A stretch of DNA of 64,000 nucleotides from a bacterium (GCA_043803945.1 JAZDJN010000010.1:20823-84822); one strand, 5' to 3'. Positions 42,801-56,300 are shown, counted from the stretch's first letter. Translations and numbers: made by a program. Notes: a model not told the origin generated them from the letters alone.

Positions 42801-44075
42801 TTTTCCTTCTCTTATTGCTGTTCCTGTTGGTCCGCGTCCTTCAGGAACATCGCTAATGGAAATCTTCCTAATCTTTGTGAGATAACCATCTTCAACTCCA
42901 GCGAACGTTACGGGGTAAACATATTTTGTCCCTTCATCAACTAAACCGAGCCATGCCATCTGGAATTTTCCGTATTCAATAGCTATTCGGCAAGTTTCCT
43001 CGAAAAGTTTATCTCTATCGCGTATTCGAACAATCGCTTGGTTGATCTGACTGATAACTGCATACACACGATTGGCTTTAAGGATTTTTTCTTCGGCTTG
43101 ATTGAGTTCGATTACACGTTGTTCCAGATCGGCGGCGTAGCGCTGAGTGGATTCGTACAGCCGAGCATTCTCGATTGCCAGCGCCGCCAGATTGGCAAGG
43201 GTGCTGCACAGGCTGATCTCTGGCTCGGAGAGCACTCGCGGCTCTTCGGCGGTGGACACGATGATCGTACCCAGCACTTTAGTTCCGGCAATAAGCGGCA
43301 GGTAGAGTATCGAGCGCAAATCCCGTATCTCGGTGACGGCTCGTTCCGCCGGAGTGAGGTCGGCGGTTGCAGTGTCGGGCAGGAAGACAGGCAAGCCGGT
43401 GGTGATTGCTATGCAAATGTGGGGGTGGTCGGCAAGCGGCGCATTGCGCAATTCTTCGGGGAAGTGTGGGGGTAGCGGAGGTGTGGTCGCCCACAGACGC
43501 AACGTTTCTCCCTCGAGTAGATAAATAGCGGAGCTTTTCAGTTCCGTCAGTTCGGCTACACGATCGGTGGTTGTCTGAAGGATGGTACTGAGGTTCAGCG
43601 TGGCAGCAAGCTCCTGACTAATCTTTAACAGTGTAGACAGTTCCACTGAGTGCCGGTGATTTTTTTCTTCCGAAAGCTTGCGCTCGGTGATATTTTGGGC
43701 GATTACCAATGCTGCCTCGCGTTTTTTGTGCTCCACTGAGTGAGATGTGAACTCCACATTAATGATGTGACCGTCTTTCAACTTGAGGCGCCATTCACCT
43801 GAATGCTGCAACTCTGGCCCTTCCTTTGCAGCATCATCGAGCAAGCGTGCAACATCTTCCGCAGGTAGAATGTCTTTCAGTGTCATCTTGAGGAATTCTT
43901 CAAGGGTGTAGCCGTATTTGTCTATAGCGGCACCGTTCACATCGAGAAAGGCAAGTGTCTTGAGATCGTACACCCACATAGGGAGGGGGTGATGGTGGAA
44001 CAGAAGGTGGAAGGTTTCCTCGCTCGACTTAGATTGGGGGGGACGCGTTCTTCGGAGAGATTTTTTGGTTTTCAT
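39873..44075 (-). CDS. Sensor histidine kinase PAS-2xGAF-5xPAS-HisKA-HATPase
   Basis: MSHELRTPLNSIIGF; NLINNAIKFT; DTGIGI; GTGLGL; no TM segment seen. Confidence 0.96.
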   Translation of the reverse strand: MKTKKSLRRTRPPQSKSSEETFHLLFHHHPLPMWVYDLKTLAFLDVNGAAIDKYGYTLEEFLKMTLKDILPAEDVARLLDDAAKEGPELQHSGEWRLKLKDGHIINVEFTSHSVEHKKREAALVIAQNITERKLSEEKNHRHSVELSTLLKISQELAATLNLSTILQTTTDRVAELTELKSSAIYLLEGETLRLWATTPPLPPHFPEELRNAPLADHPHICIAITTGLPVFLPDTATADLTPAERAVTEIRDLRSILYLPLIAGTKVLGTIIVSTAEEPRVLSEPEISLCSTLANLAALAIENARLYESTQRYAADLEQRVIELNQAEEKILKANRVYAVISQINQAIVRIRDRDKLFEETCRIAIEYGKFQMAWLGLVDEGTKYVYPVTFAGVEDGYLTKIRKISISDVPEGRGPTGTAIREGKHFVCEDIENDQRMAPWKDEALKRGYRSSIALPIKLFGKVIGAFSIYAHTPHFFDQEEIKLLDEVTNDISFALETIETEKKRQQAVEALRESEGKFRKLLESTPLPLCYVNKDGVITFRNERFIKVFGYTNDDVPTLAEWWTNAYPEVQYRQWVVQNWESAVQRAAETGTDIESEEYHVTCRDGNVREIIISGITIDDNFLATFIDITERKRAEETIQRNEAVLRLFVEHSPAAIAMFDSEMKYIVASRRYLIDYDLGEQDVVGRSHYEIFPEIPERWKEIHKRCLAGETERADADPFPRMSGKLDWVRWEIRPWYEHNNEISGIILFSEVITERRKIEMDRDRMFNLSIDMLSISGFDGYFKQLNPAWEKTLGWKNEELKSKPYIEFVHPDDREPTINAASGLSEGKTVMTFDNRYLCKDGSYKWISWSSYPLVDEKLIFAMARDITERKRAEEVLDETHKQYRQALIQAKAVPYIRYYHEDFYNFIGEDIINYTGYSVEEFIPSLWKELRQEVIMLEECAGLTIEEAGQLVREGKRSHWLADYKIKTRNGEIRWINDTASQIKDQEGKIIGSLGVLQDVTERKKAEEAIRESEEKYHSLFENMLEGFAYCKMLFEDGHPQDFVYLDVNHKFEELTGLINVTGKKVSEVIPGIKESNPELLELYGRVALTGKPERFESYLPTLDMWFSIAVYSNQKEYFIAVFDVITERKQAEEGLKRLNAELEQRVAERTRELTLAMENAQDADRIKSEFLAAMSHELRTPLNSIIGFSSVLLQRMAGPLNEEQSKQLTMVSGSAHHLLELINDVLDISKIEAGQLQISKKPFDLRMIFLTVVETSLPAAEKKGISLRMEIGLDVGVIVSDQRRVEQILINLINNAIKFTERGEIHITCRGRDGWIETSVRDTGIGIRAENIDKLFQPFQQMETGLTRSYEGTGLGLSICKNLLELLGGTITVESEYGMGSTFTFTLPLAKEIK

Positions 44076-44452
44076 GGCTCATCTCCAAGTGTGCATAAGT
44101 GGGGCGCAATTTCACCTAATGTTTCATAGTTGCATTGTGTGTTCGTTACAAAATGATCTATGTAAATACATGGCTATTCCGCTTCTTCTACTTAAACACA
44201 AAAACCTCTTTCATTGTTGTAAACAATTCCAGAGGTTTCCTAACAAAATAGTACGGGAGTTGCACTGTTCACTCCATTGATAAAACCGAATACCCCTCCA
44301 CCCTAATCTCCATCAGAGCATTATCATACTACATAATGTAGTGATCGTTGAAGCCACTATCAATACAATCAATACTCAGATGATTTATAACGTTGGGTAG
44401 GATGTAAGGGCAGATAAGCGGAACGACCGGGTGTAATCGTTGCCGGATTTAT

Positions 44453-44779
44453 TTATGTCCCCAGGCAAACAAGGCGAATAAGTCGAATAGACTCTGTATT
44501 GCGGAGATGAACCAACTCGGTAGACCGTGTTGTCATCGCGATAATCTCCTTATCTTCACGATGAATTTCAATCAACATAGCGCTCGAAGACTGTACCTCT
44601 ATTCCATCTGGTTTGATTTCTGGACTTCTCATCGCCGATCTCACTGTATCGCTTCTACTAAAAACCGTGTTAAATCCAGAGACCACTTGAACTGTCACAA
44701 GTGCATCAGCCCTCGCTCTGTTCTGGGCATAAGACTCGATTGCAAGCAGCAGCAGAATACTAACGATAATTGTCTTCAT
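44453..44779 (-). CDS. Small secreted hypothetical protein
   Basis: Start likely ATG 44779 (GGAG RBS); signal peptide MKTIIVSILLLLAIESYA-Q. Confidence 0.7.
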   Translation of the reverse strand: MKTIIVSILLLLAIESYAQNRARADALVTVQVVSGFNTVFSRSDTVRSAMRSPEIKPDGIEVQSSSAMLIEIHREDKEIIAMTTRSTELVHLRNTESIRLIRLVCLGT

Positions 44780-44802
44780 GATGATCTCCGTTTCCTGAAG
44801 AC

Positions 44803-44820
44803 CTTCACGATCAGTGCCAG
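44803..44820 (-). promoter_or_regulatory. Putative sigma54 promoter
   Basis: CTGGCAC-TGATC-GTGAAG; upstream site TGAAGGTTCTACA at 44922-44934. Confidence 0.5.
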
Positions 44821-45083
44821 TATTCCTCAAACGATAGAAGGAAAAAAGTGAGGAGGTGCCAATAGAATAAGAGATTTCTGAATGTGCTACTGACTATAGT
44901 TAGTCGAGCTGGTGTTTTCCTTGAAGGTTCTACAATCGGTGAATGGGGGTGTAAGGGATGAGTCAGATAAGAAGAATTAACAATGCTCTAGGACCTTTTC
45001 GAGAAGCTTCTTCTCGCACAATGCTCGCAAAGAAGCGCAACGCTCGCTACAATGATGTAACTTTTTAATACGCTGTGAGACTT

Positions 45084-45205
45084 ACTCAACCCCCTTAATC
45101 CCCCTTCTCTAAGTTTTAGAGAAGGGGGTATGCCTGCTCGCCGACTTGTCCACCGAAGTTCGAAGAACGGAGGTGGAAGCGGGAGCGTAGGCGAGGGGGA
45201 TGAGT
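45084..45205. repeat. REP-like palindrome H2 carrying two nested micro-insertions (45133-45195 outer, 45145-45177 inner)
   Basis: Same arms as H1/H3; the 30-nt insert of H3 is present but split by an extra 33 nt. Confidence 0.9.
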
Positions 45206-45256
45206 CAGATAAGCAGAAATATTTAACCTTTACGTGACACTCTATCACGTTCTCTC

Positions 45257-47245
45257 TTACTCCAAATGAAGTTCCGATTTAATGAATCGTTCAAATTGAT
45301 CGGGCGAGACTGGTTTAACAAGTACATCCACTGCACCACTGAGCATAAGCGCCTCCCGGCTCGAAGCAGAATCCTCCCCCGTGACGACAAGAACAGGAAT
45401 ATCCTTTGTTGCCTGCTCCTGCTTCAATCGTGTTAGAAAATCAAATCCGTTGACTTCAGGCATCGCATAATCAGTAATAATCAGTTTAGGCCGGTACTTC
45501 AACGCATAGAGAAATCCTTCCTTGCCATTATTCGCGTGAATCAGTGTAGCGTTTGGAAAAAGTCTGGAAATGTATTTACTATGAAGCACTCGGATACCAG
45601 GCTCATCATCAATAACCAATATTTTTAATTCTCCCTCGCCGACACTTTTTTGAAACCATAGAGCAAATTCGGTTCCTTTACCAACTTCACTCGCAACAAT
45701 GATCGATCCATGGTGTTTCTTGACAATCTCATGCACAACTGATAAACCAAGCCCGGTACCCTCTTCACCGGCAAGCCCGCGCCGGGTATATTTTTCCTCA
45801 ACTTTATAAAGTTTACCCAGATCTGTTGCAGGGATACCGATACCCGAATCTTTAATCGTCACAACCCACGTTGCTTCATCTTCCCCGGTGTATTCAACCT
45901 GAATGACCCCCTGTGCCGGTGTAAACTTCAACGCATTCCCGATGAGGTTATTGAATACCTGTAGAAGAAGCGCACGATCTCCCTTAATACACATTCTCGG
46001 TTTTAGGCTAGAATAAAGGAGAATATTTTTCTGTTTGGCAATTCCTAAGAGCGATGAGATGCTCGACTTCACCACATCATAGAGATCAACCTCGGTCATT
46101 TCTACTCGCATTCGCCCGGATTCCAGTCGGGTCCAATCGAGCAGTTTCGATACCAGTCCCAGTTGTTGTTGAGTCGATTCTTTAATATAGCCAAGGTATT
46201 CCGTAATCTCTGCCTCAGTGAGAGTCTTCCGATCCTCTGTCAATATCTCACAGAATCCCATAATGCTCGCAAGCGGAGATCTCAGGTCGTGAGATAAGAT
46301 TGAGACAAATTTATCTTTTTGTTTATTGATGGCATCTAATGCTTCGCGTGATGCTTTGAGTGCTTTCACATGCTCATGTAAACGTTCTTCGAGCGCCTTC
46401 CGGATAGTGATATCCTCGAGCATCCCTTCAAAATACAACATGGTCCCCTTTTCGTCACGAATGGCTCGAGAATGCTCGAGAACAACAATTTCCTGACCAT
46501 TCTTTTTCTTGAGCCTTTGCTCATAATTTGTGCATTGTCCCTTTTCAGTTAATTCTCTCACAAGATCTTTTCGATCTTCCGGGTGAACATAGATATCGGC
46601 AAGATTGATGGCTGCCAGTTCCTCGAAGGAAGAATATCCCAGCATCGTGAGAAGAGATCGGTTCGCCATAATTAAGTACCCTTCCGGTGTACTCTGAAAC
46701 ATTCCCTGTAAGGCTTGTTCAAACATATTCTGATATTTTTTTGTCGCCTCGGCGATAATCGCACCGACCTGTTTTGTGTGGGTTCGATTGTGAGCGGAGA
46801 CAAGAAAACCCTCAATCCTTTCAGAACGAATCACCGGGGTTAATATCACTTCGGCTCGTTGTGCAGGCCGCTCGTATCCTTTGATCGCCACCTCCATCGT
46901 AACCGATGACCTCGTCAGAACACTTCGCTTTACCATCGCGGTTACGTGTTGGCGATCCTCAGCAGAAACAAAAAACAAATACTCCTTTCCGCTCGCTTGT
47001 TCAGAACTCAAACCCATAGCCTTTTCAAACGAAGGATTTACCATGCAAAGTAATCCATTCCTCGAAAAGAGCAGTTGCATCACCGGCGAAGAGGTGAACA
47101 GGTGTTCGTACAGCATTTTTGATTCCTCAGGTTGACTAAACTGGTTCATCATCGGCCAAGGTGATGTGGTCGATTTTAACAATCCAGTTTGTGTTGAGGC
47201 TTCAAAAGAATGATGAGTATCTGCATTCGGAGTGATGGCTGCCAT
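45257..47245 (-). CDS. Hybrid sensor kinase 2xPAS-HisKA-HATPase-REC
   Basis: LSHDLRSPL; NLIGNALKFT; DSGIGI; GTGLGL; REC VIDDE...TDYAMPEVNG...KP. Confidence 0.95.
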   Translation of the reverse strand: MAAITPNADTHHSFEASTQTGLLKSTTSPWPMMNQFSQPEESKMLYEHLFTSSPVMQLLFSRNGLLCMVNPSFEKAMGLSSEQASGKEYLFFVSAEDRQHVTAMVKRSVLTRSSVTMEVAIKGYERPAQRAEVILTPVIRSERIEGFLVSAHNRTHTKQVGAIIAEATKKYQNMFEQALQGMFQSTPEGYLIMANRSLLTMLGYSSFEELAAINLADIYVHPEDRKDLVRELTEKGQCTNYEQRLKKKNGQEIVVLEHSRAIRDEKGTMLYFEGMLEDITIRKALEERLHEHVKALKASREALDAINKQKDKFVSILSHDLRSPLASIMGFCEILTEDRKTLTEAEITEYLGYIKESTQQQLGLVSKLLDWTRLESGRMRVEMTEVDLYDVVKSSISSLLGIAKQKNILLYSSLKPRMCIKGDRALLLQVFNNLIGNALKFTPAQGVIQVEYTGEDEATWVVTIKDSGIGIPATDLGKLYKVEEKYTRRGLAGEEGTGLGLSVVHEIVKKHHGSIIVASEVGKGTEFALWFQKSVGEGELKILVIDDEPGIRVLHSKYISRLFPNATLIHANNGKEGFLYALKYRPKLIITDYAMPEVNGFDFLTRLKQEQATKDIPVLVVTGEDSASSREALMLSGAVDVLVKPVSPDQFERFIKSELHLE

Positions 47246-47301
47246 AATGTATCCCCTTAGTGTATAATGAAAATAATTCTCTGTGGCATTGATTCTTACC
47301 G

Positions 47302-49734
47302 TTACTTTACGTGAATGAGTCGTTGTATTAGCACGCGCTGGCCATACTGTAATCGTGCGAAATATATTCCACTCGCCATGTTCTTTGCATCCCAGACTTT
47401 ACTGTAATTCCCTGCCGGTTTTTGCTCGTCCACAAAGGTGTCCACTTCTCTTCCAATGGAATCGTAGATCTTGAGAACAACACGCCCGGCAGCGGGAAGA
47501 TGATATCGAATGGTTGTGCTGCTGTTGAAAGGATTTGGATAGTTTTGATCGAGAACCAGCGAGTCTGGAATTATAAATTGCTGTTCAACCGGGGTTGTAG
47601 CCTGGGGAACGGTGAGAAGACCGTACTCGCGTGTTCGGTCTGAAGAATCACGTTCTCGAATGATATATTCAATTCTCGAAGACGAAGGTGAAAAATTATC
47701 TGTAAATCGAGTGAGTGAATCGGTCGAGATTATTGAGGACACCATGGGAGAAAACACTCCCAATCGTCTGACAATGGAGGAGCCCGCATCCTTTGCCAGT
47801 ATTTCCACAGCAGCAAGCGAATATGAATTACGCTTTTTCCATTGAATTTCATTTTTTGAACTCGTCAATGCAGAGATTGATGCCGATAAATAGGAGGGCG
47901 AGAAATAAGCAGAACCGGTAAGAGAACGCAGGAACGTGAGTCCATCAGCCGACGGCCGCGTCCCAACCCCCGATTGGATAAGGCGTGTTTTCAAATCAGC
48001 ACTGTGTGCCTGCGGTTGAAGCTGAAATGCAAGAGCAAGAAGCCCTGTGATTTGTGGCGCCGCGAAACTTGTGCCGAACCGGAGGATGTAACCATTGTAC
48101 TCAGCATTCGGCGAAGGGGTCAATACGCCGCCACCCGCCGCTAAAATTTCTGGTTTCTGCCGCTCATCGAGAGTTGGTCCTTCACTACTAAATGAACTGA
48201 CCTGGCCTAGTTGAAGAGACGCATCGATGGAGCCGACGGTAATGGCTTCCTTCGCATTCCCTGGGGAACTGACGAGATATCGGCGTGTTACCTGGCTGTT
48301 TTTATCATCAAACCAGGCAGTTCCCCCGCGTAAATTTGAGTCCACCAGCCAGAGATGAAAACGGCCTGATTCACGCGATCGGAGATTCTTCACGATGATA
48401 TTCCATCGGCCGGGCTGAATCTTTGATTGCCCCATGCTTGCCAACTGAATGGAAGCGAGATACAATCGAGTCAGCGGCGATATTCCACGGGAAGCATTAT
48501 CGATAAAACCCACACCATCGGACGTTTGGCTGAATCCATAATTTCCACGCGTCACTGCCTGAATTCTTTTTCCCGACGGTGTAACAATACTAATTTGCAC
48601 ACTGTCATCAGGTGAATACCAGGTTTCTATTCCAACCGATGAGCTTGATTGATCGAAGGATCCGATGCTCGACGGGATATCCATACCGATGGAAATTGAA
48701 TCCCCCTGGTAATGCAAAACACCCTCAGCGTGAATTGGATTTTCCCTATCATTCCCCGCGGCAACAACGACCGCAACTCCCGGACTTGCCGCAATTGCAT
48801 CTATGGCCAGCTCATACAGCCTCGATCCATTATGAGCACCGTACCGGCTGCCAAGGCTCAGATTAATAACGAGTGGCTTTCGCAGGGAATCGGCTATTCT
48901 TTTTGCATAGAGCATCCCATCAATTATTCTCGCTTCGCTGAAGCAATCATCCCCTCCTTTGATAATGATCAAATCAGACTTTGGTGCAATTCCACACAAC
49001 TCACCTTTCGATAGCAAACCATTTCCCGCTGCAATCCCTGCTACCGCTGTTCCATGGCCAGTGAAATCACGCTCACGAACATAGCTGGTTCTCTCTTGTT
49101 TTAGTTCACTGACAATGTCGTTTCGTGAGTACTGAACCCCATAAGAGTATCCACCGGGGGTATGATGTGTTACATCTGGCTGATCTGTTTGGTCCCACAG
49201 AAACAATATGCGACTCTGAGTGACAGCATTATTTGCCGAGAAATCTGGATGTCTCCAATCGATTCCTGAATCATAGATCGCAATGAGTACGCCTTCACCG
49301 GTAATCGGTTGGTTTTTAAGTATACCCAGATGTGCATCTTTTACATTTGTCAAATAGGTATTGGGTAATTCACTTGGGCGCTCGACGTGCGATTCTTGGA
49401 CATAAGTCACATCTTCACATTGAAGAAGAGTTTTGAGCTCTTCGAGTGTCGCTTCGATAGTGGCGATGGAATGAATTCTCGATCGAACCCGGAATCCTTG
49501 TTTGATCAACTCATCGATCTTCTCGGACTGCAGAATGAGTTCCAGCGTATCGTTGGAATTGATTGCACTTCGCTTTGCCAGCGATGTTTCGAACAATGTT
49601 TGATAGCGCATGCGAAGTGTGGGCGATAATTTATGTTCATCCTGTGCATAAACGGCTGACGTGAACGAGAGCGCCAGAATTGAAGCGAAGTAAATGCAGT
49701 AGATTCGAAAGGTGGATGACATTGAATTTCTCAT
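47302..49734 (-). CDS. Secreted S8 (subtilisin/CspA-like) serine peptidase with T9SS type A C-terminal domain
   Basis: Triad YDSGID / GHGTAVAG / GTSFAAP; AAGN; CTD LDQNYPNPFNSSTTIRY...ASGIYF; signal peptide ending SAVYA-Q; start 49734 or 49722. Confidence 0.92.
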   Translation of the reverse strand: MRNSMSSTFRIYCIYFASILALSFTSAVYAQDEHKLSPTLRMRYQTLFETSLAKRSAINSNDTLELILQSEKIDELIKQGFRVRSRIHSIATIEATLEELKTLLQCEDVTYVQESHVERPSELPNTYLTNVKDAHLGILKNQPITGEGVLIAIYDSGIDWRHPDFSANNAVTQSRILFLWDQTDQPDVTHHTPGGYSYGVQYSRNDIVSELKQERTSYVRERDFTGHGTAVAGIAAGNGLLSKGELCGIAPKSDLIIIKGGDDCFSEARIIDGMLYAKRIADSLRKPLVINLSLGSRYGAHNGSRLYELAIDAIAASPGVAVVVAAGNDRENPIHAEGVLHYQGDSISIGMDIPSSIGSFDQSSSSVGIETWYSPDDSVQISIVTPSGKRIQAVTRGNYGFSQTSDGVGFIDNASRGISPLTRLYLASIQLASMGQSKIQPGRWNIIVKNLRSRESGRFHLWLVDSNLRGGTAWFDDKNSQVTRRYLVSSPGNAKEAITVGSIDASLQLGQVSSFSSEGPTLDERQKPEILAAGGGVLTPSPNAEYNGYILRFGTSFAAPQITGLLALAFQLQPQAHSADLKTRLIQSGVGTRPSADGLTFLRSLTGSAYFSPSYLSASISALTSSKNEIQWKKRNSYSLAAVEILAKDAGSSIVRRLGVFSPMVSSIISTDSLTRFTDNFSPSSSRIEYIIRERDSSDRTREYGLLTVPQATTPVEQQFIIPDSLVLDQNYPNPFNSSTTIRYHLPAAGRVVLKIYDSIGREVDTFVDEQKPAGNYSKVWDAKNMASGIYFARLQYGQRVLIQRLIHVK

Positions 49735-49747
49735 GATGACTGAATTT

Positions 49748-49765
49748 CTACAAGTGGTATGCCAG
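49748..49765 (-). promoter_or_regulatory. Putative sigma54 promoter
   Basis: CTGGCAT-ACCAC-TTGTAG; upstream site TGTAGATTCTATA at 49837-49849. Confidence 0.6.
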
Positions 49766-49882
49766 CGGGATATTCCATTTAGCATTGATTTATGCGGAAA
49801 TACAGAAGGACAATTCGAGGCCAGACGATGCGCGATTGTAGATTCTATAAATTCAGATCCAGCATTCTCTGATACTTGCTCT

Positions 49883-50062
49883 GCCACAAAGACACTAAGG
49901 CGCCAAGGAATCTGGTCGAAAAGTGACTTTGCCACTGAGTCACAGAGAGCACAGAGATAGTCTTTTTGAAATATTGAGGATAGAACCAACATTTATCAAT
50001 CTCTGTGACCTCCCCGCCTGCCGCTATAGTATCTAAACTGGCGGGCAGGTGTGTCTCCGTGG
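49883..50062. repeat. CACAGAG/CACAAAG-type short repeats with a 37-nt palindromic micro-insertion (50013-50049)
   Basis: GCCACAAAGACACTAAG, GCCACTGAGTCACAGAGAGCACAGAG, and inverted CTCTGTGACCTC^TGTGTCTCCGTGG split by CCCGCC...GGCGGGCAGG. Confidence 0.75.
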
Positions 50063-50085
50063 CGGACTTTTCGACCGGATTACCC

Positions 50086-50120
50086 AAAAAAAAGCGCCGA
50101 AGAATATTTTCTTCGACGCT
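50086..50120 (-). terminator. Intrinsic terminator after the 50148 gene
   Basis: Minus strand AGCGTCGAAGAA-AATA-TTCTTCGGCGCT-TTTTTTT. Confidence 0.85.
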
Positions 50121-50147
50121 CCGTTCTTCCTCTACTGCACCGTGCAG

Positions 50148-50915
50148 CTATTTTAGCAAGATCATTCTACGGGCTGTCATAGATGATGCGGTCTGCACCC
50201 TGATAATATACATTCCTGAAGGCAGGGCCGATCCAGACCGATCCATTGCATTCCATGCCAATGTATGCTCCCCAGTTAGTTGGTTTCCCTCATAGAGGCG
50301 GTCGATTACTCTTCCAGCCACATCATAGATTGCTATAGAGACATACTCTGGCTTCAACAGTCGGTAAGAAATCGTGGTAGAAAGGTTGAAGGGATTGGGA
50401 TAGTTTTGAGCTAACTGAATTGTATTCTTAAGATTAGCGAGAATGAAATCATTATAGGGGTAATAGGGAGCCGCTGTTATCGGCAGCATCTTCACCTGAT
50501 CGACTAACTCCAATCTGCTGATGAAGATCACGGAGGAATCCGATATTTCACGTTCTGCAAATTTTAACGTCACGCTGCCGATTTCCCGATTCCCTGCTGG
50601 TAAATTATTATAGACCGGGGTTAGAAAGAGAAAGTTCAACGTCGTATCATCTTTAAGATAGTGATGAACCTCAACTCCAGAACTGCTAAATTGAGAGGCA
50701 ACTTGCATTTCCGAGAACCGAACCCCGTTACGCGCATTCAGATAAACAAGTGCTCCGCCGACCGGGTCACTGTGTTGCAGCACGATGGTAATTGTATTCG
50801 GTTCTTTCCCTTTTTTTATCAGAATTGTATTTTCCGAATGGAGTGTAACAGGAATTATTATGAACATTGAGGTAACTATAATCCAAACGACCTTACTTAT
50901 ATTTCGATAACACAT
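50148..50915 (-). CDS. Secreted protein with T9SS type A/FlgD-Ig C-terminal domain
   Basis: Start likely ATG 50915 (AGGAG RBS); signal peptide; LAQNYPNPFNLSTTISY...WNAMDRSGSALPSGMY. Confidence 0.88.
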   Translation of the reverse strand: MCYRNISKVVWIIVTSMFIIIPVTLHSENTILIKKGKEPNTITIVLQHSDPVGGALVYLNARNGVRFSEMQVASQFSSSGVEVHHYLKDDTTLNFLFLTPVYNNLPAGNREIGSVTLKFAEREISDSSVIFISRLELVDQVKMLPITAAPYYPYNDFILANLKNTIQLAQNYPNPFNLSTTISYRLLKPEYVSIAIYDVAGRVIDRLYEGNQLTGEHTLAWNAMDRSGSALPSGMYIIRVQTASSMTARRMILLK

Positions 50916-50951
50916 TGACGTTCTCCTGAGATCATATCGACACGAGCTATA

Positions 50952-50969
50952 CTCCAACGATTGTGCCAG
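50952..50969 (-). promoter_or_regulatory. Putative sigma54 promoter
   Basis: CTGGCAC-AATCG-TTGGAG; weaker upstream site TTACAAATCTACA at 51067-51079. Confidence 0.55.
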
Positions 50970-51162
50970 TGCTATCTCAGAAGAGTCTGGGTATAATCAC
51001 ATCATAATATCTAAGAAACTGGAAGGAAATATTGGTCCACCGCAATGAGTATGCAGAGTTATTTTATTACAAATCTACAAATCGTGAAAGGAAACCTTCG
51101 CGGCATGCTTTTATTGGTTACACGAAGGTACACGAAGGAAAGAAGTCTCACATTTGGAAGGC

Positions 51163-51487
51163 AGGTGACTGGCACCTTCCGATTGATTAGTTGCATTCAG
51201 AATTGCATCTAACCGTTCGCTAAAATAAGGATCTCTACGAAGCGAACGGTTAGCTCCATTGAGGCAGATGACCGTCACCTCGTCTAGGATTAGCCTCGTT
51301 CAGGTGACGGTCATCTCACAAGCTCGGTCGGGCGGGGTTGAGGGCACAGAAACACAGATGATCGGCACCAAATAGGGTCGGGAGCAGAACTCCCTCCCAG
51401 CTTGAATAGGCGATGGCCATCTCACAAATGGAAAGCGGATGACCGGCACCTCGTCTTGGATTAGCCGCGTTTAGGTGACGGTCATCT
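51163..51487. repeat. Cluster of AGGTGACNGTCAYCT REP-like inverted repeats
   Basis: Perfect 15-bp IR 51266-51280/51302-51316; near-identical 51-nt copy 51437-51487; degenerate half copies near 51163, 51356 and 51408; separate 13-bp IR 51209-51253. Confidence 0.85.
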
Positions 51488-52869
51488 CATTCCGGTTGGG
51501 TAATTTGGAATGCCTGTATTTTTGAGTAAAGAGTCTTAACACTGATCCCCAATATTTTTGCTGCCAGTGGTTTATTCCAACGAACAGAATCTAACACTGC
51601 AGCAATATGGAGTTTTTGAATCTCATCTAATTTCAGCGTACCGCCAATCCGCGGCACCGTGTTCGATAGTTCTACCTTACCCTCAAACATCGATGGCATA
51701 CCAAACGGCAGCGCCAAATCTTCGGGCAGTATAACATTCCCTTCACAAAGAATCGACGCACGTTCGATGACATTTTCCAATTCTCGTATGTTCCCGGGCC
51801 AACTATACTTCAGCAATATTTCCAATGCCTTCTCATCGATACGTTTAGGTGTGGTTGTCTTATTTTTTGCAGTAATAAAATGTTCAATCAACTGTGGGAT
51901 GTCATTCCTGCGCTCTCGTAACGGAGGTAACTTCAGGGTAAAGACATTCAATCGGTAAAATAGGTCTTCACGAAATCGTCCTTCTTGAACCTCGCGATGG
52001 AGATCTCTATTCGTTGCCGACAGGATTCTGACATCGGATCGAAATATCCTGTTCCCTCCGACCCGGCGATATTCACCCGTTTGGAGAAACCGAAGCAATT
52101 TTGGCTGGAGCACTCTGGGAATCTCCGCTATCTCATCGAGAAAAACAGTACCTCCATTTGCCACCTCCATCAACCCCTGCTTTGATGTAACTGCATCGGT
52201 AAAGGCACCTTTCTCATGGCCAAAGAGTTCACTTTCAATAAGCGCATCGGGAAAGGAGGAACAATTCAGAGCAAGAAATGGGTGCTCTTTCCGCAGGCTG
52301 TTCGCATGAATAAAATTCGCAATCAGCTCTTTCCCTGTGCCACTCGATCCTTGTATTAGGACGCTGGAATCTGTTGGAGCCACGCGGGAGGCAACAGACA
52401 AGAGTTCTATTAATGTTTTATCCTGGCCGATAATCAACGCGTGCATCGCTTTCGCTGCCAGCTCATTCCGAAAGCCGATATTATGTGCGAGTAGCCTTTT
52501 TCGCTCCAGTGCACGATCAATCAGCGAAAGCAATTCGGCAGGTTGATAAGGTTTCGTCACATAATGGAATGCACCCATCTTCATACAATTGACCGCAATA
52601 CTCAGGTCATCTACTCCTGTTAACATAATGACCTGCAGCTCAGGGAATCGATCTTTGATAAATTTCAGAACTTCAATACCACTAATTTGCGGCATTTCGA
52701 TATCGAGCAATACCAGGTCGTAAGGCACTATCTGGAGTTCATTGATTGCGGTGAGTCCATCCTTGGAGGTGGCGACAAAATATCCTTCCAATTCCAGTAA
52801 ATTCTTCGCCGTTTCCAGAAACGCCGGTTCATCATCGACAATTAAAATGGATATAGGTACTTTTGGCAT
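51487..52869 (-). CDS. Sigma54-dependent response regulator (NtrC/AtoC family: REC-AAA+-Fis HTH)
   Basis: GSSGTGKE; ESELFGHEKGAFTDA; FLDEI; FREDLFYRLNV; WPGNIRELEN; AAKILGISVKTLYSKI. Confidence 0.97.
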   Translation of the reverse strand: MPKVPISILIVDDEPAFLETAKNLLELEGYFVATSKDGLTAINELQIVPYDLVLLDIEMPQISGIEVLKFIKDRFPELQVIMLTGVDDLSIAVNCMKMGAFHYVTKPYQPAELLSLIDRALERKRLLAHNIGFRNELAAKAMHALIIGQDKTLIELLSVASRVAPTDSSVLIQGSSGTGKELIANFIHANSLRKEHPFLALNCSSFPDALIESELFGHEKGAFTDAVTSKQGLMEVANGGTVFLDEIAEIPRVLQPKLLRFLQTGEYRRVGGNRIFRSDVRILSATNRDLHREVQEGRFREDLFYRLNVFTLKLPPLRERRNDIPQLIEHFITAKNKTTTPKRIDEKALEILLKYSWPGNIRELENVIERASILCEGNVILPEDLALPFGMPSMFEGKVELSNTVPRIGGTLKLDEIQKLHIAAVLDSVRWNKPLAAKILGISVKTLYSKIQAFQITQPE

Positions 52870-52924
52870 ACAACTTCTCTCCGAAATTATTTGTTATACG
52901 AAGATACACAAAAGGAAGAAAATA

Positions 52925-53310
52925 GCGTTTGCGTGAGACTGTTTATTGTTTCTCGCTCGCCACCTGAGAGTCTAATGAGGCGGGCAGGCAGAACACGCAA
53001 CGGACGCAAAGGAGTTGTTTTTACTCATCCCCCTCGCCTACGCTCCCGCTTCGGCGAGCAGGCATACCCCCTTCTCTAAAAAATAGAGAAGGGGGATTGA
53101 GGGGGTTGAGTAAGACAAACAGCTTTTTCAAAAAATAAAGATGTTACACGAAGAGCACTCCGCCATAGGCGGATCAGCCTTCCACCAAAAAGACGGCGGA
53201 CAGGTCGGCTGAGAAGAAGGCACGAAGAGAAATATACATCGTGGTTCTTCGTGGTGCAACTTCCCTGCCCGCCGGAATACGAAGTATGTAGGCGGGGTGT
53301 TCCTTCGTGA
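52925..53310. repeat. Compound repeat region: REP-like palindrome H3 (53021-53113) plus CGCAAA- and CACGAA-type repeats, with five micro-insertions
   Basis: Inserts at 52956-52988, 53033-53062, 53159-53212 (containing 53181-53204) and 53264-53296. Confidence 0.88.
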
Positions 53311-53326
53311 AATGTTTTTGATACTG

Positions 53327-56300
53327 TTACGGTTTTCCTTCATCAAGGACTTCACGTAATTTTTTCAGAACATCCTCCGGATCGTAAGGTTTTTGAATAA
53401 ACTCTTTCGCTCCTTTCACGAAAAGTTCCGATTTGAAACCCGGCTCCATATATCCGCTTGCCATGATCACCTTTGCAGTCGATTGTTTCTCCAGTATAGC
53501 TTGCAGCATCGCTGTGCCTTTCATTCTGGGCAATCCGACATCGGAAATCACAGCGTCAATGTTGTCTTTTTCACGTTCGAATAGTTGCAAACCCTCCACA
53601 CCATCTCGCGCAATCAATACGGTATATCCAGCGTCTTTAAGAACGATGCCAATAATCTTTGCCAGCACCTCCTCATCTTCAACGATAAGAATTGTCTCTG
53701 AACCACCCGGGAGTTGATATACTCCTTTTGTATCTATTCGATCCTGAATGATCCCTTCGGGTACTGGAAAATAGAGGATGATACTTGTACCACGACCTGG
53801 ACTGCTGTCGACGTCGATGAAACCATGATGTGCGGTCACGACTCCATACACAACAGAAAGCCCTAATCCCGTCCCCTTCCCAAGTTCTTTTGTTGTAAAG
53901 AACGGTTCAAAAATACGGTTTTTAATTGACTCATCCATCCCGCTTCCGGTATCCTTCACCTCAATGCACACATAGTGCGTCGCAGCAGCGTCGGGATGAG
54001 TCTGTACCATTTTTTCGAGAGGGAGCAGCCCCGTGCGGATCGTCAATTCGCCGCTCTCCTCCATGGCATCGCGAGCATTGACACAGAGATTCAGTATCGC
54101 TTGATGAAGTTGATTATGATCCATCATCACTATCGGTACCGATTTTTCAAGATTAAGATTGAAGATGACCGTCTTGGGGAAGGTCTCAGTGAGCATCCCT
54201 ACCAGTTCTTTCACGACTAAATTTACACTCACCGGTTCGAGTGCCGTCTCACTTTTCCTGGCAAACGTTAGAATTTGCCGGACCAGCGCTGCTCCACGAT
54301 CGGTAGCTTTCTGAATTCCTTCGATACTTGAATGCAGAAGCTCAAAGCGCTCTTTCCCGGGAAGCTTTAAAAGAATATGGGTATAGGCCATAATGATACC
54401 GAGGATGTTATTAAAATCGTGAGCAATCCCCCCCGCCAGAGTTCCTATACTATCCATCTTCTGAACTTGATTCATTTGGCTCAGCAATCTCTTTTGCTCT
54501 GTGACATCCTGAAATACTTCGAGCATCGTATTCTTACCTTCATATATTATTCCGATATGAGTAATCTGAAATGTCTTTCCCCCAAGAACTCCATGAACCT
54601 CTAACGTTTCCGGTTTGCCAAATTCTATTCCCTTATGGAGAGGACAGCCTCGACATTGCTCCTTATCATCCCTATACACCTTCCAGCAACGTTCTCCAGT
54701 CATATTTGTTCCAGCGAATGCTTTCATAGTGTCGTTAGCGAAGATGATCTTTCCTTGCTCATCGACAATATCCAATCCAAAAGGAATCGTTTTTAACAGA
54801 AGCTCATTGAAAGCATTGCTTTGTTCAAGCTCTCTCTCTGCCTCTTTTCGCTTGGTGATATCTTGTAGGATGGTTCTTATTCCCTCGATGGTGCCATCTG
54901 AGTCTTTTATAAAACGATCTTCGACAAGAACCGGGAATGTCGATCCATCCTTTCTTCGGGAAGCAGTTTCTAAATTTATCATTTGATCACTCGAGCCCGA
55001 AAGTTTAGCCAGCACTCGTTGTTTGAACGACTCTTCATCAGCGACAAATTTCCAGGCATACTGTCCTACCATCTCTTCTTCTGTGTAATCCAACATTTCT
55101 CGTTCCGTCTTATTGACACGGACAATACGCCCTTCAGTATCGACCTCATGATATCCGACAGGAGCGCTATCGAAGAGGTCTTTAAATCGCAGATCGCTCT
55201 CACGTAGTTCTTCCTCAGCCCGCTTGCTCGCCAGTTCGGCTAACTTGCGCTCGGTGATGTCGCGCAGACTGCCCTGGAGTTTTTCGGGACGTCCTTGAGC
55301 ATCGAACCAGATCTTTGTGGCAATAGAGCAGAGAATCGATGAACCATCACGATTCTTCAATGTTATTTCATAATCAGTAACACTACCTCGTTCCTTCAAC
55401 ATTGCTAAGAGGGCCTGTCGTTCTCCGGGATCAGCATAGAAATCAAGCATCGACTTTCCTATCAGGTCATCCCGACGAAACTGGCCTTTTGACAAAATCT
55501 CGATAGAAGGACTGACTTCGATGATCACACCATCGACAGATGTTTCATAGTAGACATCCTGTACGTTTTCGAAGATGCCGCGGTATTTTTCTTCGCTCAC
55601 CAGCAGCGCCTCCTCCGCCTTCTTGCGCTCGGTGATGTCCCGGTTGATTATCAAAATACCGATCTTTTTGCCGGTGTGATCTTTGACAGAGACCTTTGTT
55701 GACAAGTGACATCTATCGATCTTGCCCGTCGCTGGATCCTGACGGATTTTCTCTTGACTAATCAGCGGCTCACCCGATTCGAGAATTGCATCCTCCTCCG
55801 CAAAATGTTCTTGTGCCAACTCGGGGCGAGTGAAATCAAAATCGGTTTTCCCCAACAGTTCGTTCATCGACTTGGCACCGATGGCATTCATCGTCGCACG
55901 GTTAGCCACGAGGAACCGGTGCTTTAGATCTTTCAGGCACACTTCATCGGGAATGCTCTCAATGAGGGTGAGCAGCAACGTGCGCTCTTTTTCCAGCATT
56001 TCTTCTGATTGCATGAGCTTGGTGATATCACGATTGATACTCACGAGGCCGATGATCTTGCCTTCGTGGTCCTTCAGCGGGATCTTTGAAATCAGCAGGC
56101 TCCGCTCAATTGCTCCGGTCTCAGGATCGACCTTAGTTGCGACTCTGTCCCTGGAATGGTCGCCAACTGCCAGAACAGTGTTCTCTTCCTCCCTCGCATC
56201 TTTCACGAGATGCTCGGGAACCAGATCTTCATCCTTCTTCCCGATGATTTCATCTGCCGAGGCCCGCTTGAGAGCGTTTATAGTTCCCGTGTTCACAAGA

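What the first reader, a model, noticed from the sequence alone, without database searches (positions are those of the whole stretch)
45133..53296. Family of 24-37 nt nested palindromic micro-elements, C(C/T)TGY(C/T)CRCC-Nn-GGYGR(G/A), with no transposase in view
Seen: copies at 45133-45195, 45145-45177, 50013-50049, 52956-52988, 53033-53062, 53181-53204 and 53264-53296 share a CCTG/CTTG tail plus a 6-bp GC stem but have mostly unrelated loops. A second type (TCCGCCATAGGCGGATCAGCCTTCGGCTGA) spans 53159-53212. Removing each insert restores a recognisable host repeat. Targets recur: two innermost inserts sit at CT^TCGG inside another element's loop, and two sit at CAC^GAA/TTC^GTG. Net lengths are 30, 33, 37, 33, 30, 24, 33 and 30, so all but one are multiples of 3. 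Established: HUH tyrosine transposases (IS200/IS605 TnpA, RAYT) recognise hairpins with short guide tetranucleotides and leave no duplication. Inference: an apparently undescribed tier of hairpin-targeting micro-mobile elements, smaller than typical MITEs and mobilised in trans. This is my best candidate for a novel system here.
Basis: partly seen in the sequence, partly recalled or inferred. Interest (0 to 1): 0.82.

Follow-up and report, generated by a model that had tools for sequence, protein, structure and literature searches.

The report
Nested tagged-hairpin micro-repeats in Ignavibacteria
This bacterial genome is peppered with tiny (19-45 base) DNA hairpins carrying a four-letter tag that were inserted precisely into other repeats and into each other; they are a new branch of the known REP-like selfish hairpin repeats, and what moves them is still unknown.

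Summary
All seven copies and the 30-nt "second type" are at the stated coordinates. Five of the seven, plus the second type, have exact "empty" paralogous sites.

Genome-wide there are 190 non-redundant elements on 69 of 118 contigs: C(C/T)TG tag, 6-bp GC stem, 3-30-nt loop. 117 of 190 have empty sites. Boundaries are exact to about 1 nt: 110 of 212 loci match with true boundaries, 2-24 when one boundary is shifted. A 24-nt form sits in 15 host contexts and 19-20-nt palindromes in 9-13.

The family occurs in 47 of 61 related Ignavibacteria-type genomes, own genome included, against at most 1 hit per strand for a reversed control.

The "undescribed tier" reading is overstated. The architecture is that of REPs (tag plus hairpin) and recalls cyanobacterial SDRs, but the tag is new. 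It fails the RAYT-flanking, REPIN-doublet and Ssn-motif tests. Multiples of 3 and in-gene insertion are not supported.

The mover is unidentified: HUH Y1 chemistry fits best, while neighbourhood and co-occurrence lean towards small GIY-YIG nuclease genes.

That is a different family. No look-alike of this stretch was on record.

The parts
45133..45195 (+). E1, a 30-nt element (CCTG-CTCGCC-loop-GGCGAG), interrupted after CCGA by E2. Its own bases are 45133-45144 and 45178-45195.
   Evidence: Removing 45145-45177 gives exactly the reverse complement of 53033-53062. There are 5 paralogous empty sites for the whole composite.
45145..45177 (+). E2, a 33-nt element (CTTG-TCCACC-loop-GGTGGA), nested 2 nt past the 5' stem arm of E1 (CCGA^AG).
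   Evidence: The same nested pair is present on contigs C15 and C81. Its empty site is the E5 copy.
50013..50049 (-). E3, a 37-nt element (CCTG-CCCGCC-21 nt-GGCGGG) of the 36/37-nt class.
   Evidence: 28 paralogous empty sites. It lies inside a palindromic host repeat of about 170 nt (arms 49909-49924 / 66-50081).
52956..52988 (-). E4, a 33-nt element (CCTG-CCCGCC-loop-GGCGAG) with one stem mismatch.
   Evidence: No empty paralogue was found, so insertion is not shown for this copy.
53033..53062 (-). E5, an intact 30-nt copy of E1.
   Evidence: (I3: 30 nt, 100% complementary). 5 empty sites.
53159..53212 (+).
   Evidence: 3 empty sites, one with 0 mismatches. The unbiased indel survey recovered this 30-nt type as a discrete insert in several contexts.
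53181..53204 (-). E6, the 24-nt element (CCTG-TCCGCC-GTCTTTTT-GGTGGA, one G.T pair), nested at CCGA^AG in the second hairpin's loop.
   Evidence: 28 empty sites. It belongs to the 24-nt cluster of 33 copies in 15 host contexts.
53264..53296 (+). E7, a 33-nt element (CCTG-CCCGCC-17 nt-GGCGGG), ending 30 nt before the stop codon (53327-53329) of the 2551-aa ORF on the minus strand, i.e. just downstream of that gene.
   Evidence: No empty paralogue. One related copy on C79. Covered by an RNA-library contig spanning 53251-53403.
45062..45132 (.). Host repeat carrying E1/E2. An inverted copy at 53051-53133 carries E5.
   Evidence: I1, 83-nt arms, 89% complementary.

Best explanation
These are REP/SDR-type selfish hairpin repeats of a new tag class. 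Each unit has a single-sided 4-nt tag (CCTG, CTTG, sometimes CCAG), a 6-bp GC-rich stem (YCCGCC, CCTGCC, YCCCGA, CTCGCC, TCCACC) and a 3-30-nt loop.

Shown:
- Units have been inserted precisely, with at most 1-2 nt of junction identity.
- Hosts are many different repeats: REP-like hairpins next to RAYT genes, NTS/SRM-like hairpins, a partial tRNA-Asp copy, and other members of their own family.
- Composites were then amplified together with their hosts.

Inferred, and my single best mechanism at about 0.35: the unit moves as a folded single strand in trans. An HUH Y1 (RAYT or IS200-type) enzyme reads tag plus hairpin, cuts 5' of the tag and 3' of the stem, and joins the piece into exposed single-stranded DNA after a purine. 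The TCCGCC class targets GA^AG just past a hairpin's 5' arm.

That these are, or were, mobile tagged hairpins at all I put at about 0.85.
For: Precise insertion:
- 117 of 190 elements have paralogous empty sites.
- 30 of 190 have a 0-mismatch junction of 24 nt or more.
- Boundary-shift controls support exact ends.

Independent insertion:
- The 24-nt form has 33 copies in 15 host contexts, the 19-nt form 20 copies in 9, and the 20-nt form 14 copies in 13.

REP-like architecture:
- The one-sided tag is specific.
- E. coli TnpA-REP needs the 5' tetranucleotide plus the hairpin. It acts only on ssDNA, cuts at a dinucleotide on either side of the REP, and performs strand exchange (passages).

Junction rule:
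- The base before the insert equals the element's last base in 58 of 106 non-redundant contexts (permutation mean 45.4, p = 0.0003).
- A-ending elements sit at GA^ in 8 of 21 contexts and are followed by AG in 7 of 21.
- In 8 same-orientation nestings the insert lies exactly 2 nt past the host's 5' arm.

Enzymes on hand:
- The genome has 12 Y1_Tnp matches, about 9 of them intact RAYT-like ORFs, each flanked by its own palindromes.
- The repeats around the C72 RAYT gene carry CCAG-CCCGCC hairpins.
- In relative G060, a RAYT-like gene is bracketed by two identical 29-nt CCTG-TCCGCC elements.

The family is old and conserved: 47 of 61 genomes (60 relatives plus the own genome) hold it, with the same size classes.
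Against: - No RAYT gene in this genome is flanked by cognate CYTG hairpins. Only 2 of 12 Y1 loci have any within 1.2 kb.
- 0 tagged hairpins lie in 10 Y1_Tnp loci (29 kb) of four relatives.
- Relative G011 (97% complete) has 6 elements and no Y1 match. G006 and G028 each have a single Y1 match.
- C72-type RAYT homologues occur in 24 of 61 genomes and are missing from several element-rich ones: G013, G023, G021, G044.
- Strand orientation shows no replication bias: 72 of 148 tags lie on the G-rich strand, although skew tracks ORF strand (rho 0.76). For IS200/IS605-type insertion I recall that a lagging-strand bias is known.
- Once GIY-YIG counts are controlled for, element load no longer tracks Y1 counts (partial r 0.16).
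- No orthologous empty site or population polymorphism was seen.
Confidence: 0.35

Rival explanations
1. The tagged hairpins are the cognate single-strand sites of small Ssn-like GIY-YIG nucleases, as NTS/SRM hairpins are for SsnA. They would spread by nuclease nicking followed by repair or copy synthesis, not by a transposase.
For: - Around small GIY-YIG genes of five relatives there are 21 tagged hairpins in 14 of 31 loci (49.1 kb, 0.43 per kb). That compares with 0 in 10 Y1 loci (29 kb; four of the five genomes, none from G011) and 0.051 per kb over the whole own genome.
- 6 of 46 such genes have a tagged hairpin within 100 nt upstream of the GIY-YIG domain match.
- The C101 GIY-YIG gene is flanked on both sides by triple-nested CYTG-YCCCGA hairpins.
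- Across 61 genomes, element load correlates with GIY-YIG matches (Spearman 0.60; partial 0.41 given Y1). The 14 element-free genomes have a median of 2.5 matches; the 25 genomes with 10 or more elements have a median of 9.
- Precedent: CGTC-tagged hairpins, for which no transposase was known, turned out to be Ssn sites.
Against: - 0 of 190 elements fit the published SRM search motif.
- The association is spread over at least three GIY-YIG subtypes rather than one clade.
- It may be indirect. These genes sit beside tRNA genes, followed by a decayed tRNA copy or preceded by a partial one, and those copies collect hairpin inserts.
- The intergenic baseline density is far higher than the whole-genome figure.
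- A GIY-YIG nuclease cuts but is not known to join DNA.
- Kin are not independent, so the p-values are overstated.
Confidence: 0.25
2. No dedicated enzyme is involved. Units are copied between hairpins by replication template switching or short-tract gene conversion at stalled, hairpin-rich DNA, and selection or drive keeps the foldable ones.
For: - Inserts lie in or beside palindromes more often than control positions (19 of 56 against 23%).
- There is 1-2 nt of junction identity.
- There is no strand bias.
- No cognate gene was found next to the elements in this genome: the ORFs flanked on both sides that were read are ordinary genes.
Against: - One or two nt of microhomology is very little for template switching.
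- The strictly one-sided tag and exact ends in up to 15 unrelated contexts look like sequence-specific recognition.
- The same units persist across genera and families.
Confidence: 0.15
3. The hairpins are conserved functional sites, such as terminators, mRNA-stabilising structures or protein-binding sites. The filled/empty differences would then reflect deletions, or hitch-hiking inside larger mobile repeats, not mobility of the small unit.
For: - Window copies lie just downstream of stop codons, and RNA-library contigs cover two of them.
- Many copies were clearly amplified together with their host repeat, keeping the same loop variant within one host family.
- Stems and tag are kept while loops vary.
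Against: - Near-identical units (3 or fewer differences) occur in 9-15 unrelated host contexts.
- Precise loss without flanking direct repeats is unlikely.
- There is no orientation bias relative to neighbouring genes: 46 same against 60 opposite.
- No Rfam family matches.
Confidence: 0.08
4. The units move through an RNA intermediate and reverse transcription. As I recall its abstract, this was proposed for cyanobacterial SDRs.
For: The genome has 4 RVT_1 matches. The elements lie in transcribed 3' regions.
Against: Element-rich G013 (52 hits) and G011 show no RVT_1 match. There is no orientation bias relative to transcription.
Confidence: 0.03

Closest known systems
REP / BIME / REPIN elements with RAYT (TnpA-REP) Y1 transposases; GTAG- and CGTC-tagged palindromes of Di Nocera et al. 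2013 (PMC3733652: abstract and passages seen; Ton-Hoang et al. 2012, PMC3333891: passages seen)
   Same: - A 20-40-nt GC-rich imperfect palindrome with a conserved unpaired tetranucleotide on one side.
- Extragenic, with tens to hundreds of copies.
- Several families per genome.
- Some REPs are already reported inside other palindromes.
- The genome encodes many RAYT-like genes.
   Different: - The tag is C(C/T)TG or CCAG, not GTAG or CGTC.
- There is no REPIN-like inverted doublet: 6 of 15 neighbour pairs within 200 nt are inverted.
- No RAYT gene is shown to be flanked by cognate units.
- Self-nesting is extensive.
- Units go down to 19-20 nt.
Small dispersed repeats (SDR1-8) of Nostoc and relatives, Elhai et al. 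2008, Genome Res 18:1484. The full text is not held. I saw only citing passages; the rest is recalled from its abstract.
   Same: - Very small (about 21-27 nt) repeats with a shared hairpin fold.
- Found inside other repeats and inside copies of themselves.
- Precise insertion points (SDR5 inside HIP1).
- The mover is unknown.
   Different: - A different phylum.
- HIP1 is not enriched here (107 found against 63 expected).
- The range of sizes is wider (19-45 nt).
- Sequence relatedness could not be compared.
NTS/SRM hairpins and Ssn GIY-YIG single-strand nucleases (Chenal et al. 2025, PMC11893778: abstract and sections 6, 7, 8, 10, 17 read)
   Same: - Tagged hairpin repeats enriched around small single-domain GIY-YIG genes.
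- This genome also holds classical SRM-like hairpins, some of which host CYTG inserts.
   Different: - The motif fails the SRM search pattern: 0 of 190 match.
- The association is not tied to one nuclease clade.
- In the sections of the paper that I read, no nesting or insertion behaviour is described for NTS.
IS200/IS605 elements and their hairpin-ended derivatives (PATEs). The mechanism is summarised in passages of PMC3333891; PATE is recalled.
   Same: Single-strand hairpin recognition with a short guide 5' of the hairpin foot, insertion without duplication, and a short target word.
   Different: These units have one hairpin and no gene, are ten-fold smaller, and show no replication-strand bias.

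Membership tests
REP (tagged extragenic palindrome) | 20-40-nt GC-rich palindrome with a conserved one-sided tetranucleotide | tested here: met
   The tag is CCTG, CTTG or CCAG, not the GTAG or CGTC consensus of the two described super-families.
REP (tagged extragenic palindrome) | High copy number and extragenic location | tested here: met
   190 strict copies on 69 of 118 contigs. 183 of 190 are not deep inside an ORF of 200 aa or more.
REPIN / BIME | Units mostly paired as inverted doublets at a set spacing | tested here: not met
   Only 15 neighbour pairs lie within 200 nt. 9 are direct and 6 inverted, with no common spacing.
REPtron (REP with its RAYT) | RAYT gene flanked by the cognate REP | tested here: not met
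   - 2 of 12 Y1 loci have any CYTG hairpin within 1.2 kb, and each RAYT has other flanking palindromes.
- 0 tagged hairpins in 10 Y1 loci of relatives.
- One exception-like case in G060.
Ssn-related motif (SRM/NTS) | Fits the published degenerate SRM pattern (5' GTC ... hairpin ... CY) | tested here: not met
   0 of 190 elements match, with or without 8-nt flanks. The pattern itself finds 50 other sites in the genome (pattern).
Ssn-related motif (SRM/NTS) | Enriched in the flanks of small GIY-YIG (cd10448-type) genes | tested here: inconclusive
   14 of 31 loci hold tagged hairpins, but across several GIY-YIG subtypes and possibly via neighbouring pseudo-tRNA copies. CDD assignment was not run.
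Cyanobacterial SDR | Sequence or fold identity with SDR1-8 | not testable with these tools
   The paper is not held, so no SDR sequences are available to compare.
Cyanobacterial SDR | Nested in own copies and in other repeats, about 20-30 nt | tested here: met
   (behaviour only).
Rickettsia-type RPE | In-frame insertion within functional ORFs | tested here: not met
   7 of 190 lie inside long ORFs and none was verified. Lengths mod 3 are 79/62/49.
MITE / PATE | Terminal inverted repeats or two subterminal hairpins, 70-500 nt, often with a target duplication | tested here: not met
   Single hairpin of 19-45 nt, with junction identity of at most 1-2 nt.

The most novel reading that the evidence does not exclude
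A third class of tagged single-strand hairpin parasites (CYTG tag), alongside GTAG/RAYT and CGTC/Ssn. It would have its own, still unidentified partner enzyme, possibly one of the small GIY-YIG nucleases working with host repair. Its 19-24-nt members would be the smallest independently inserting DNA units known in bacteria. They would act as hyperparasites, landing in the loops of REP, SRM, pseudo-tRNA and sister hairpins at a defined position (stem-GA^AG).
Probability: 0.3. Interest if true: 0.8.

Novelty: new variant of a known kind. Interest (0 to 1): 0.58.

Why it matters
How REP-like hairpins spread is still only partly understood. For the CGTC class the partner protein was found only in 2025, and for cyanobacterial SDRs, as far as I recall, none is known.

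This genome offers an unusually clean record:
- more than 100 filled/empty pairs;
- defined ends and a defined target word for one class;
- up to three levels of nesting;
- the same units across dozens of genera.

That makes the insertion rule directly testable with oligonucleotides and the candidate Y1 and GIY-YIG proteins of a harmless environmental bacterium. If a specific enzyme is found, it would be a compact ssDNA cut-and-paste or site-specific nicking tool. It would also explain a large share of intergenic repeat growth in Ignavibacteria.

Tried and rejected
Population and orthologous-site evidence
- One metatranscriptome study held 53% of the sampled words. Its contigs showed no gain or loss of an insert. 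Contigs cannot show absence.
- A metagenome scan for the filled or empty E6 site found nothing.
- A viral-contig scan for the 24-nt unit found nothing.

Structure and function
- No Rfam family matches 44000-54000.
- The multiples-of-3 and in-frame idea is rejected.
- A cyanobacterial origin is rejected: HIP1 is not enriched.
- I did not build a covariance model, because loops of the 36/37-nt class show no stable inner helix.

Search for a cognate gene
- Of the 16 ORFs flanked on both sides by elements, the ones I read encode a YccF-like membrane protein, a lipoprotein, a response regulator, a cytidylyltransferase-like protein and an unnamed helix-rich membrane protein. These labels are my reading of the sequences; Pfam was not run. 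I took an overlapping-frame ORF for a RelE/ParE-like toxin. None of those read looks like a nuclease or transposase; the largest two, of 698 and 512 aa, were not read.
- The C72-type RAYT as the mover is rejected on distribution.
- IS200-type TnpA flanks carry other hairpins. One has a CTTG tag on an unrelated stem.

Technical failures
- My first motif-based extraction of GIY-YIG ORFs missed most genes. I replaced it with coordinates from the family search.
- The Elhai 2008 text could not be fetched.
- A review I expected to describe SDRs does not.

Literature searches for a described Ignavibacteria family
- 'Ignavibacteri' + 'RAYT' gave 4 unrelated papers.
- 'Ignavibacteri' + palindromic + repeat + intergenic gave 2 unrelated papers.
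- Nested insertion, palindromic, REP, hairpin, miniature.
- GIY-YIG and Ssn since 2025.
- None describes this family. The library lacks most subscription journals.

Full report
**What is there**

Each is a 4-nt tag (CCTG or CTTG), a 6-bp GC-rich stem, a loop of 8-21 nt and the complementary arm.
- E2 (45145-45177) splits E1 after CCGA. Taking E2 out gives the exact reverse complement of E5 at 53033-53062 (pair I3).
- E4 has one stem mismatch and E6 one G.T pair.
- The neighbouring ORFs are ordinary: a hybrid histidine kinase, an S8 peptidase and a small protein with T9SS sorting tails, and a sigma-54 activator. The giant 2551-aa ORF was not scanned. All copies are intergenic.

**Is it more than chance?**

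The window lies on contig C10 of a 5.54-Mb draft of 118 contigs with 46.5% GC.
- A generic scan for tag + any 6-mer + loop + exact complement gave 1040 hits. Five stems account for 221 of them (CCTGCC 91, CCCGCC 54, TCCGCC 41, TCCCGA 20, CCCCGA 15); every other stem has 6 or fewer.
- The tag is one-sided and specific. About 99 hairpins have a CCCGCC stem; their one-sided tags number CCTG 37, CTTG 15 and CCAG 12.
- After removing alternative ends and palindromic double counts, 190 elements remain on 69 of 118 contigs. Tags are CCTG 151 and CTTG 39. At least one catalogue entry is an artefact of stem pairing, C10 53159-53204.

**They are insertions with exact ends**

- Joining the 14 nt on each side of an element and searching the genome finds an uninterrupted paralogue for 117 of 190 elements.
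- 30 have a perfect junction of 24 nt or more, and 15 are perfect over 28 of 28 nt.
- Among 212 loci, 110 match with the true boundaries, but only 2-24 when one boundary is moved by 1-4 nt.
- Exact 18-mer junctions peak at shift 0 (38) and -1 (30), and are 0-2 for one-sided shifts.
- In the window, E1/E5, E2, E3, E6 and the second type have such empty sites. E4 and E7 do not.
- An unbiased survey of all 12-70-nt indels between paralogous 12+12-mers gave 933 groups after removing tandem duplications. It recovered the same family at 19, 20, 23-25, 29, 30, 33 and 35-37 nt.
- That survey also found further mini-insert types: the 30-nt double hairpins, a 33-nt two-hairpin unit inside the 24-nt unit's loop, and CCAG- and CTTG-tagged variants.

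**They inserted independently, then rode along**

Clustering (same length, 3 or fewer differences) gives these groups:

| Unit | Copies | Distinct host contexts |
|---|---|---|
| 24 nt | 33 | 15 |
| 19-nt palindrome | 20 | 9 |
| 20-nt palindrome | 14 | 13 |

Longer classes (35-37 nt) mostly keep one loop variant per host family. This shows one insertion followed by amplification of the composite.

Hosts include:
- REP-like hairpins that flank RAYT-like genes;
- NTS/SRM-like hairpins (ATTCCCGCGA^AAGCGGGAAT);
- the loops of sister elements;
- a partial tRNA-Asp copy, whose empty state is the intact tRNA-Asp 5' end.

**Target**

- The junction falls in a predicted hairpin loop in 19 of 56 non-redundant host contexts, against 23% of control positions. 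This is a weak enrichment.
- Sequence rules are clearer. The base before the insert equals the element's last base in 58 of 106 contexts (permutation mean 45.4, p = 0.0003).
- For elements ending in A, the left flank ends in GA in 8 of 21 contexts and the right flank starts with AG in 7 of 21.
- In 8 same-orientation nestings the insert lies exactly 2 nt past the host's 5' arm.
- Lengths are not biased to multiples of 3 (79/62/49). Only 7 of 190 lie deep in long ORFs. Orientation relative to co-directional neighbouring genes is 46 same and 60 opposite.

**Distribution**

- Earlier notes call the genome Ignavibacteria-type.
- The strict pattern CCTG-YCCGCC-N8-21-GGCGGR has 66 hits in the own genome. 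It is found in 47 of 61 genomes (own plus 60 relatives), including 31 of 36 in the same family. A reversed-pattern control gives at most 1 per strand per genome.
- The same size classes and near-identical loops recur in different genera: 24, 29, 30, 33 and 36 nt.
- In an even sample of 300 further genomes of the phylum, loads of 5 or more are confined to the own family, some same-order and same-class families, and a few others. Most genomes have 0-2.
- The exact 24-nt unit occurs in 54 stretches of species-representative genomes. Nearly all are MAGs labelled Ignavibacteria or Bacteroidota.
- A MAG labelled KSB1 holds nine such stretches, and 19 pattern hits in the whole genome. MAGs labelled Phycisphaerales, Pirellulales, Chloroflexi and Omnitrophota have single hits, which could be bin contamination.

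**What moves them?**

HUH Y1 enzymes are the textbook fit. TnpA-REP needs a 5' tetranucleotide plus hairpin, works only on ssDNA, cuts at a dinucleotide on either side and exchanges strands (passages). The genome has 12 Y1_Tnp matches. Each RAYT-like gene has its own flanking palindromes, none of them the CYTG type.

Evidence against a Y1 mover:
- Only 2 of 12 Y1 loci have a CYTG hairpin nearby.
- 10 Y1 loci in four relatives have none.
- G011 has elements but no Y1 match.
- C72-type RAYTs do not track element load.
- There is no replication-strand bias (72 of 148).

Points in favour:
- The junction rule.
- CCAG-tagged hairpins in the repeats around the C72 RAYT.
- One RAYT-like gene in G060 bracketed by identical 29-nt units.

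**The GIY-YIG lead**

The paper shows that CGTC-tagged NTS/SRM hairpins are ssDNA sites of small GIY-YIG nucleases, and are enriched around their genes.
- This genome has 16 GIY-YIG matches, about 11 of them tiny ORFs.
- Around 31 small GIY-YIG genes of five relatives I found 21 tagged hairpins in 14 loci (0.43 per kb). That compares with 0 in the Y1 loci (10 loci from four of those five genomes), 6 in 5 of 11 C72-like RAYT loci, and 0.051 per kb genome-wide in the own genome. A narrower definition gave 14 hairpins in 11 of 31 loci.
- Element load across 61 genomes correlates with GIY-YIG matches (rho 0.60; partial 0.41) better than with Y1 (0.50; partial 0.16). Kin are not independent.

Cautions:
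- The elements fail the published SRM pattern (0 of 190).
- The link spans several GIY-YIG subtypes.
- An alignment of two such loci from different genera shows an intact tRNA-Leu (my reading of the anticodon; no tRNA scan was run on these loci), then the nuclease gene, then a decayed second tRNA copy studded with CTTG-tagged mini hairpins. The link may therefore be through neutral, hairpin-rich landing pads.
- The proper baseline is intergenic density, which is roughly ten-fold above the genome-wide figure.

**Comparison with what is known**

- The architecture is that of REPs, and REPs inside other palindromes have been noted before.
- As far as I can recall its abstract, the behaviour (tiny, self-nesting, mover unknown) is that of cyanobacterial SDRs. 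I could see only citing passages.
- The tag, the degree of nesting, the 19-20-nt members and the lineage are new in the literature I could search.
- It is not a member of the RAYT-REP, REPIN or SRM families by their defining tests.

**Verdict**

This is a real, widespread and well-delimited family. It is best filed as a new variant of the tagged-hairpin (REP/SDR) kind, with an open mechanism.

Noticed in passing
Own genome C109:3132-3527, C99:20836-21151, C98:16617-17084; loci L109 and L095: - Tiny GIY-YIG nuclease genes sit directly beside tRNA genes (Asp, Pro, Ser; I read the fourth as Leu from its anticodon), with a duplicated or decayed piece of the same tRNA on the other side.
- In two genera the gene starts right at the tRNA-Leu 3' end.
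- This looks like a tRNA-targeting selfish gene cassette.
   Followed up: partly
window 51204-51258 and 51264-51489: - 51204-51258 holds an inverted pair with the same CTAACCGTTCGCT / AGCGAACGGTTAG hairpin as the repeats flanking the RAYT-like gene on contig C66.
- 51264-51489 holds two 55-nt direct copies of a different palindrome.
   Followed up: no
window 45062-45144 and 53051-53133: Two 83-nt copies of one host repeat, 89% complementary, lie in inverted orientation around an 8-kb block of four genes (kinase, peptidase, T9SS-tail protein, sigma-54 activator). This may be coincidence.
   Followed up: no
Relatives G016:C2:365054-369130 and G004:C9:1492217-1494256: Tandem arrays of 14 (G016) and 7 (G004) listed, near-identical ~100-aa GIY-YIG ORFs at a period of about 300 nt.
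   Followed up: no
Own genome C80:92949-93000, C101:3552-3600: Heptamer tandem repeats (units such as AAGGTTT) give indels in multiples of 7. As I recall, tandem heptamers also accompany the cyanobacterial SDRs.
   Followed up: no
L076 (G060:C12) 1162-1190 and 2304-2332: A RAYT-like gene is bracketed by two identical 29-nt CCTG-TCCGCC units, each nested in a GGAGT...ACTCC host hairpin. This is the only REPtron-like layout seen for this family.
   Followed up: partly
Either the label is off or the unit has crossed phyla.
   Followed up: partly
window 45091-45524: An RNA-library contig from a groundwater metatranscriptome covers the nested E1/E2 hairpins downstream of the kinase gene. It stops at 45091 with adapter-like letters, next to the CCCCCTTCTCTA...TAGAGAAGGGGG hairpin, so this may be a 3' end.
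   Followed up: no
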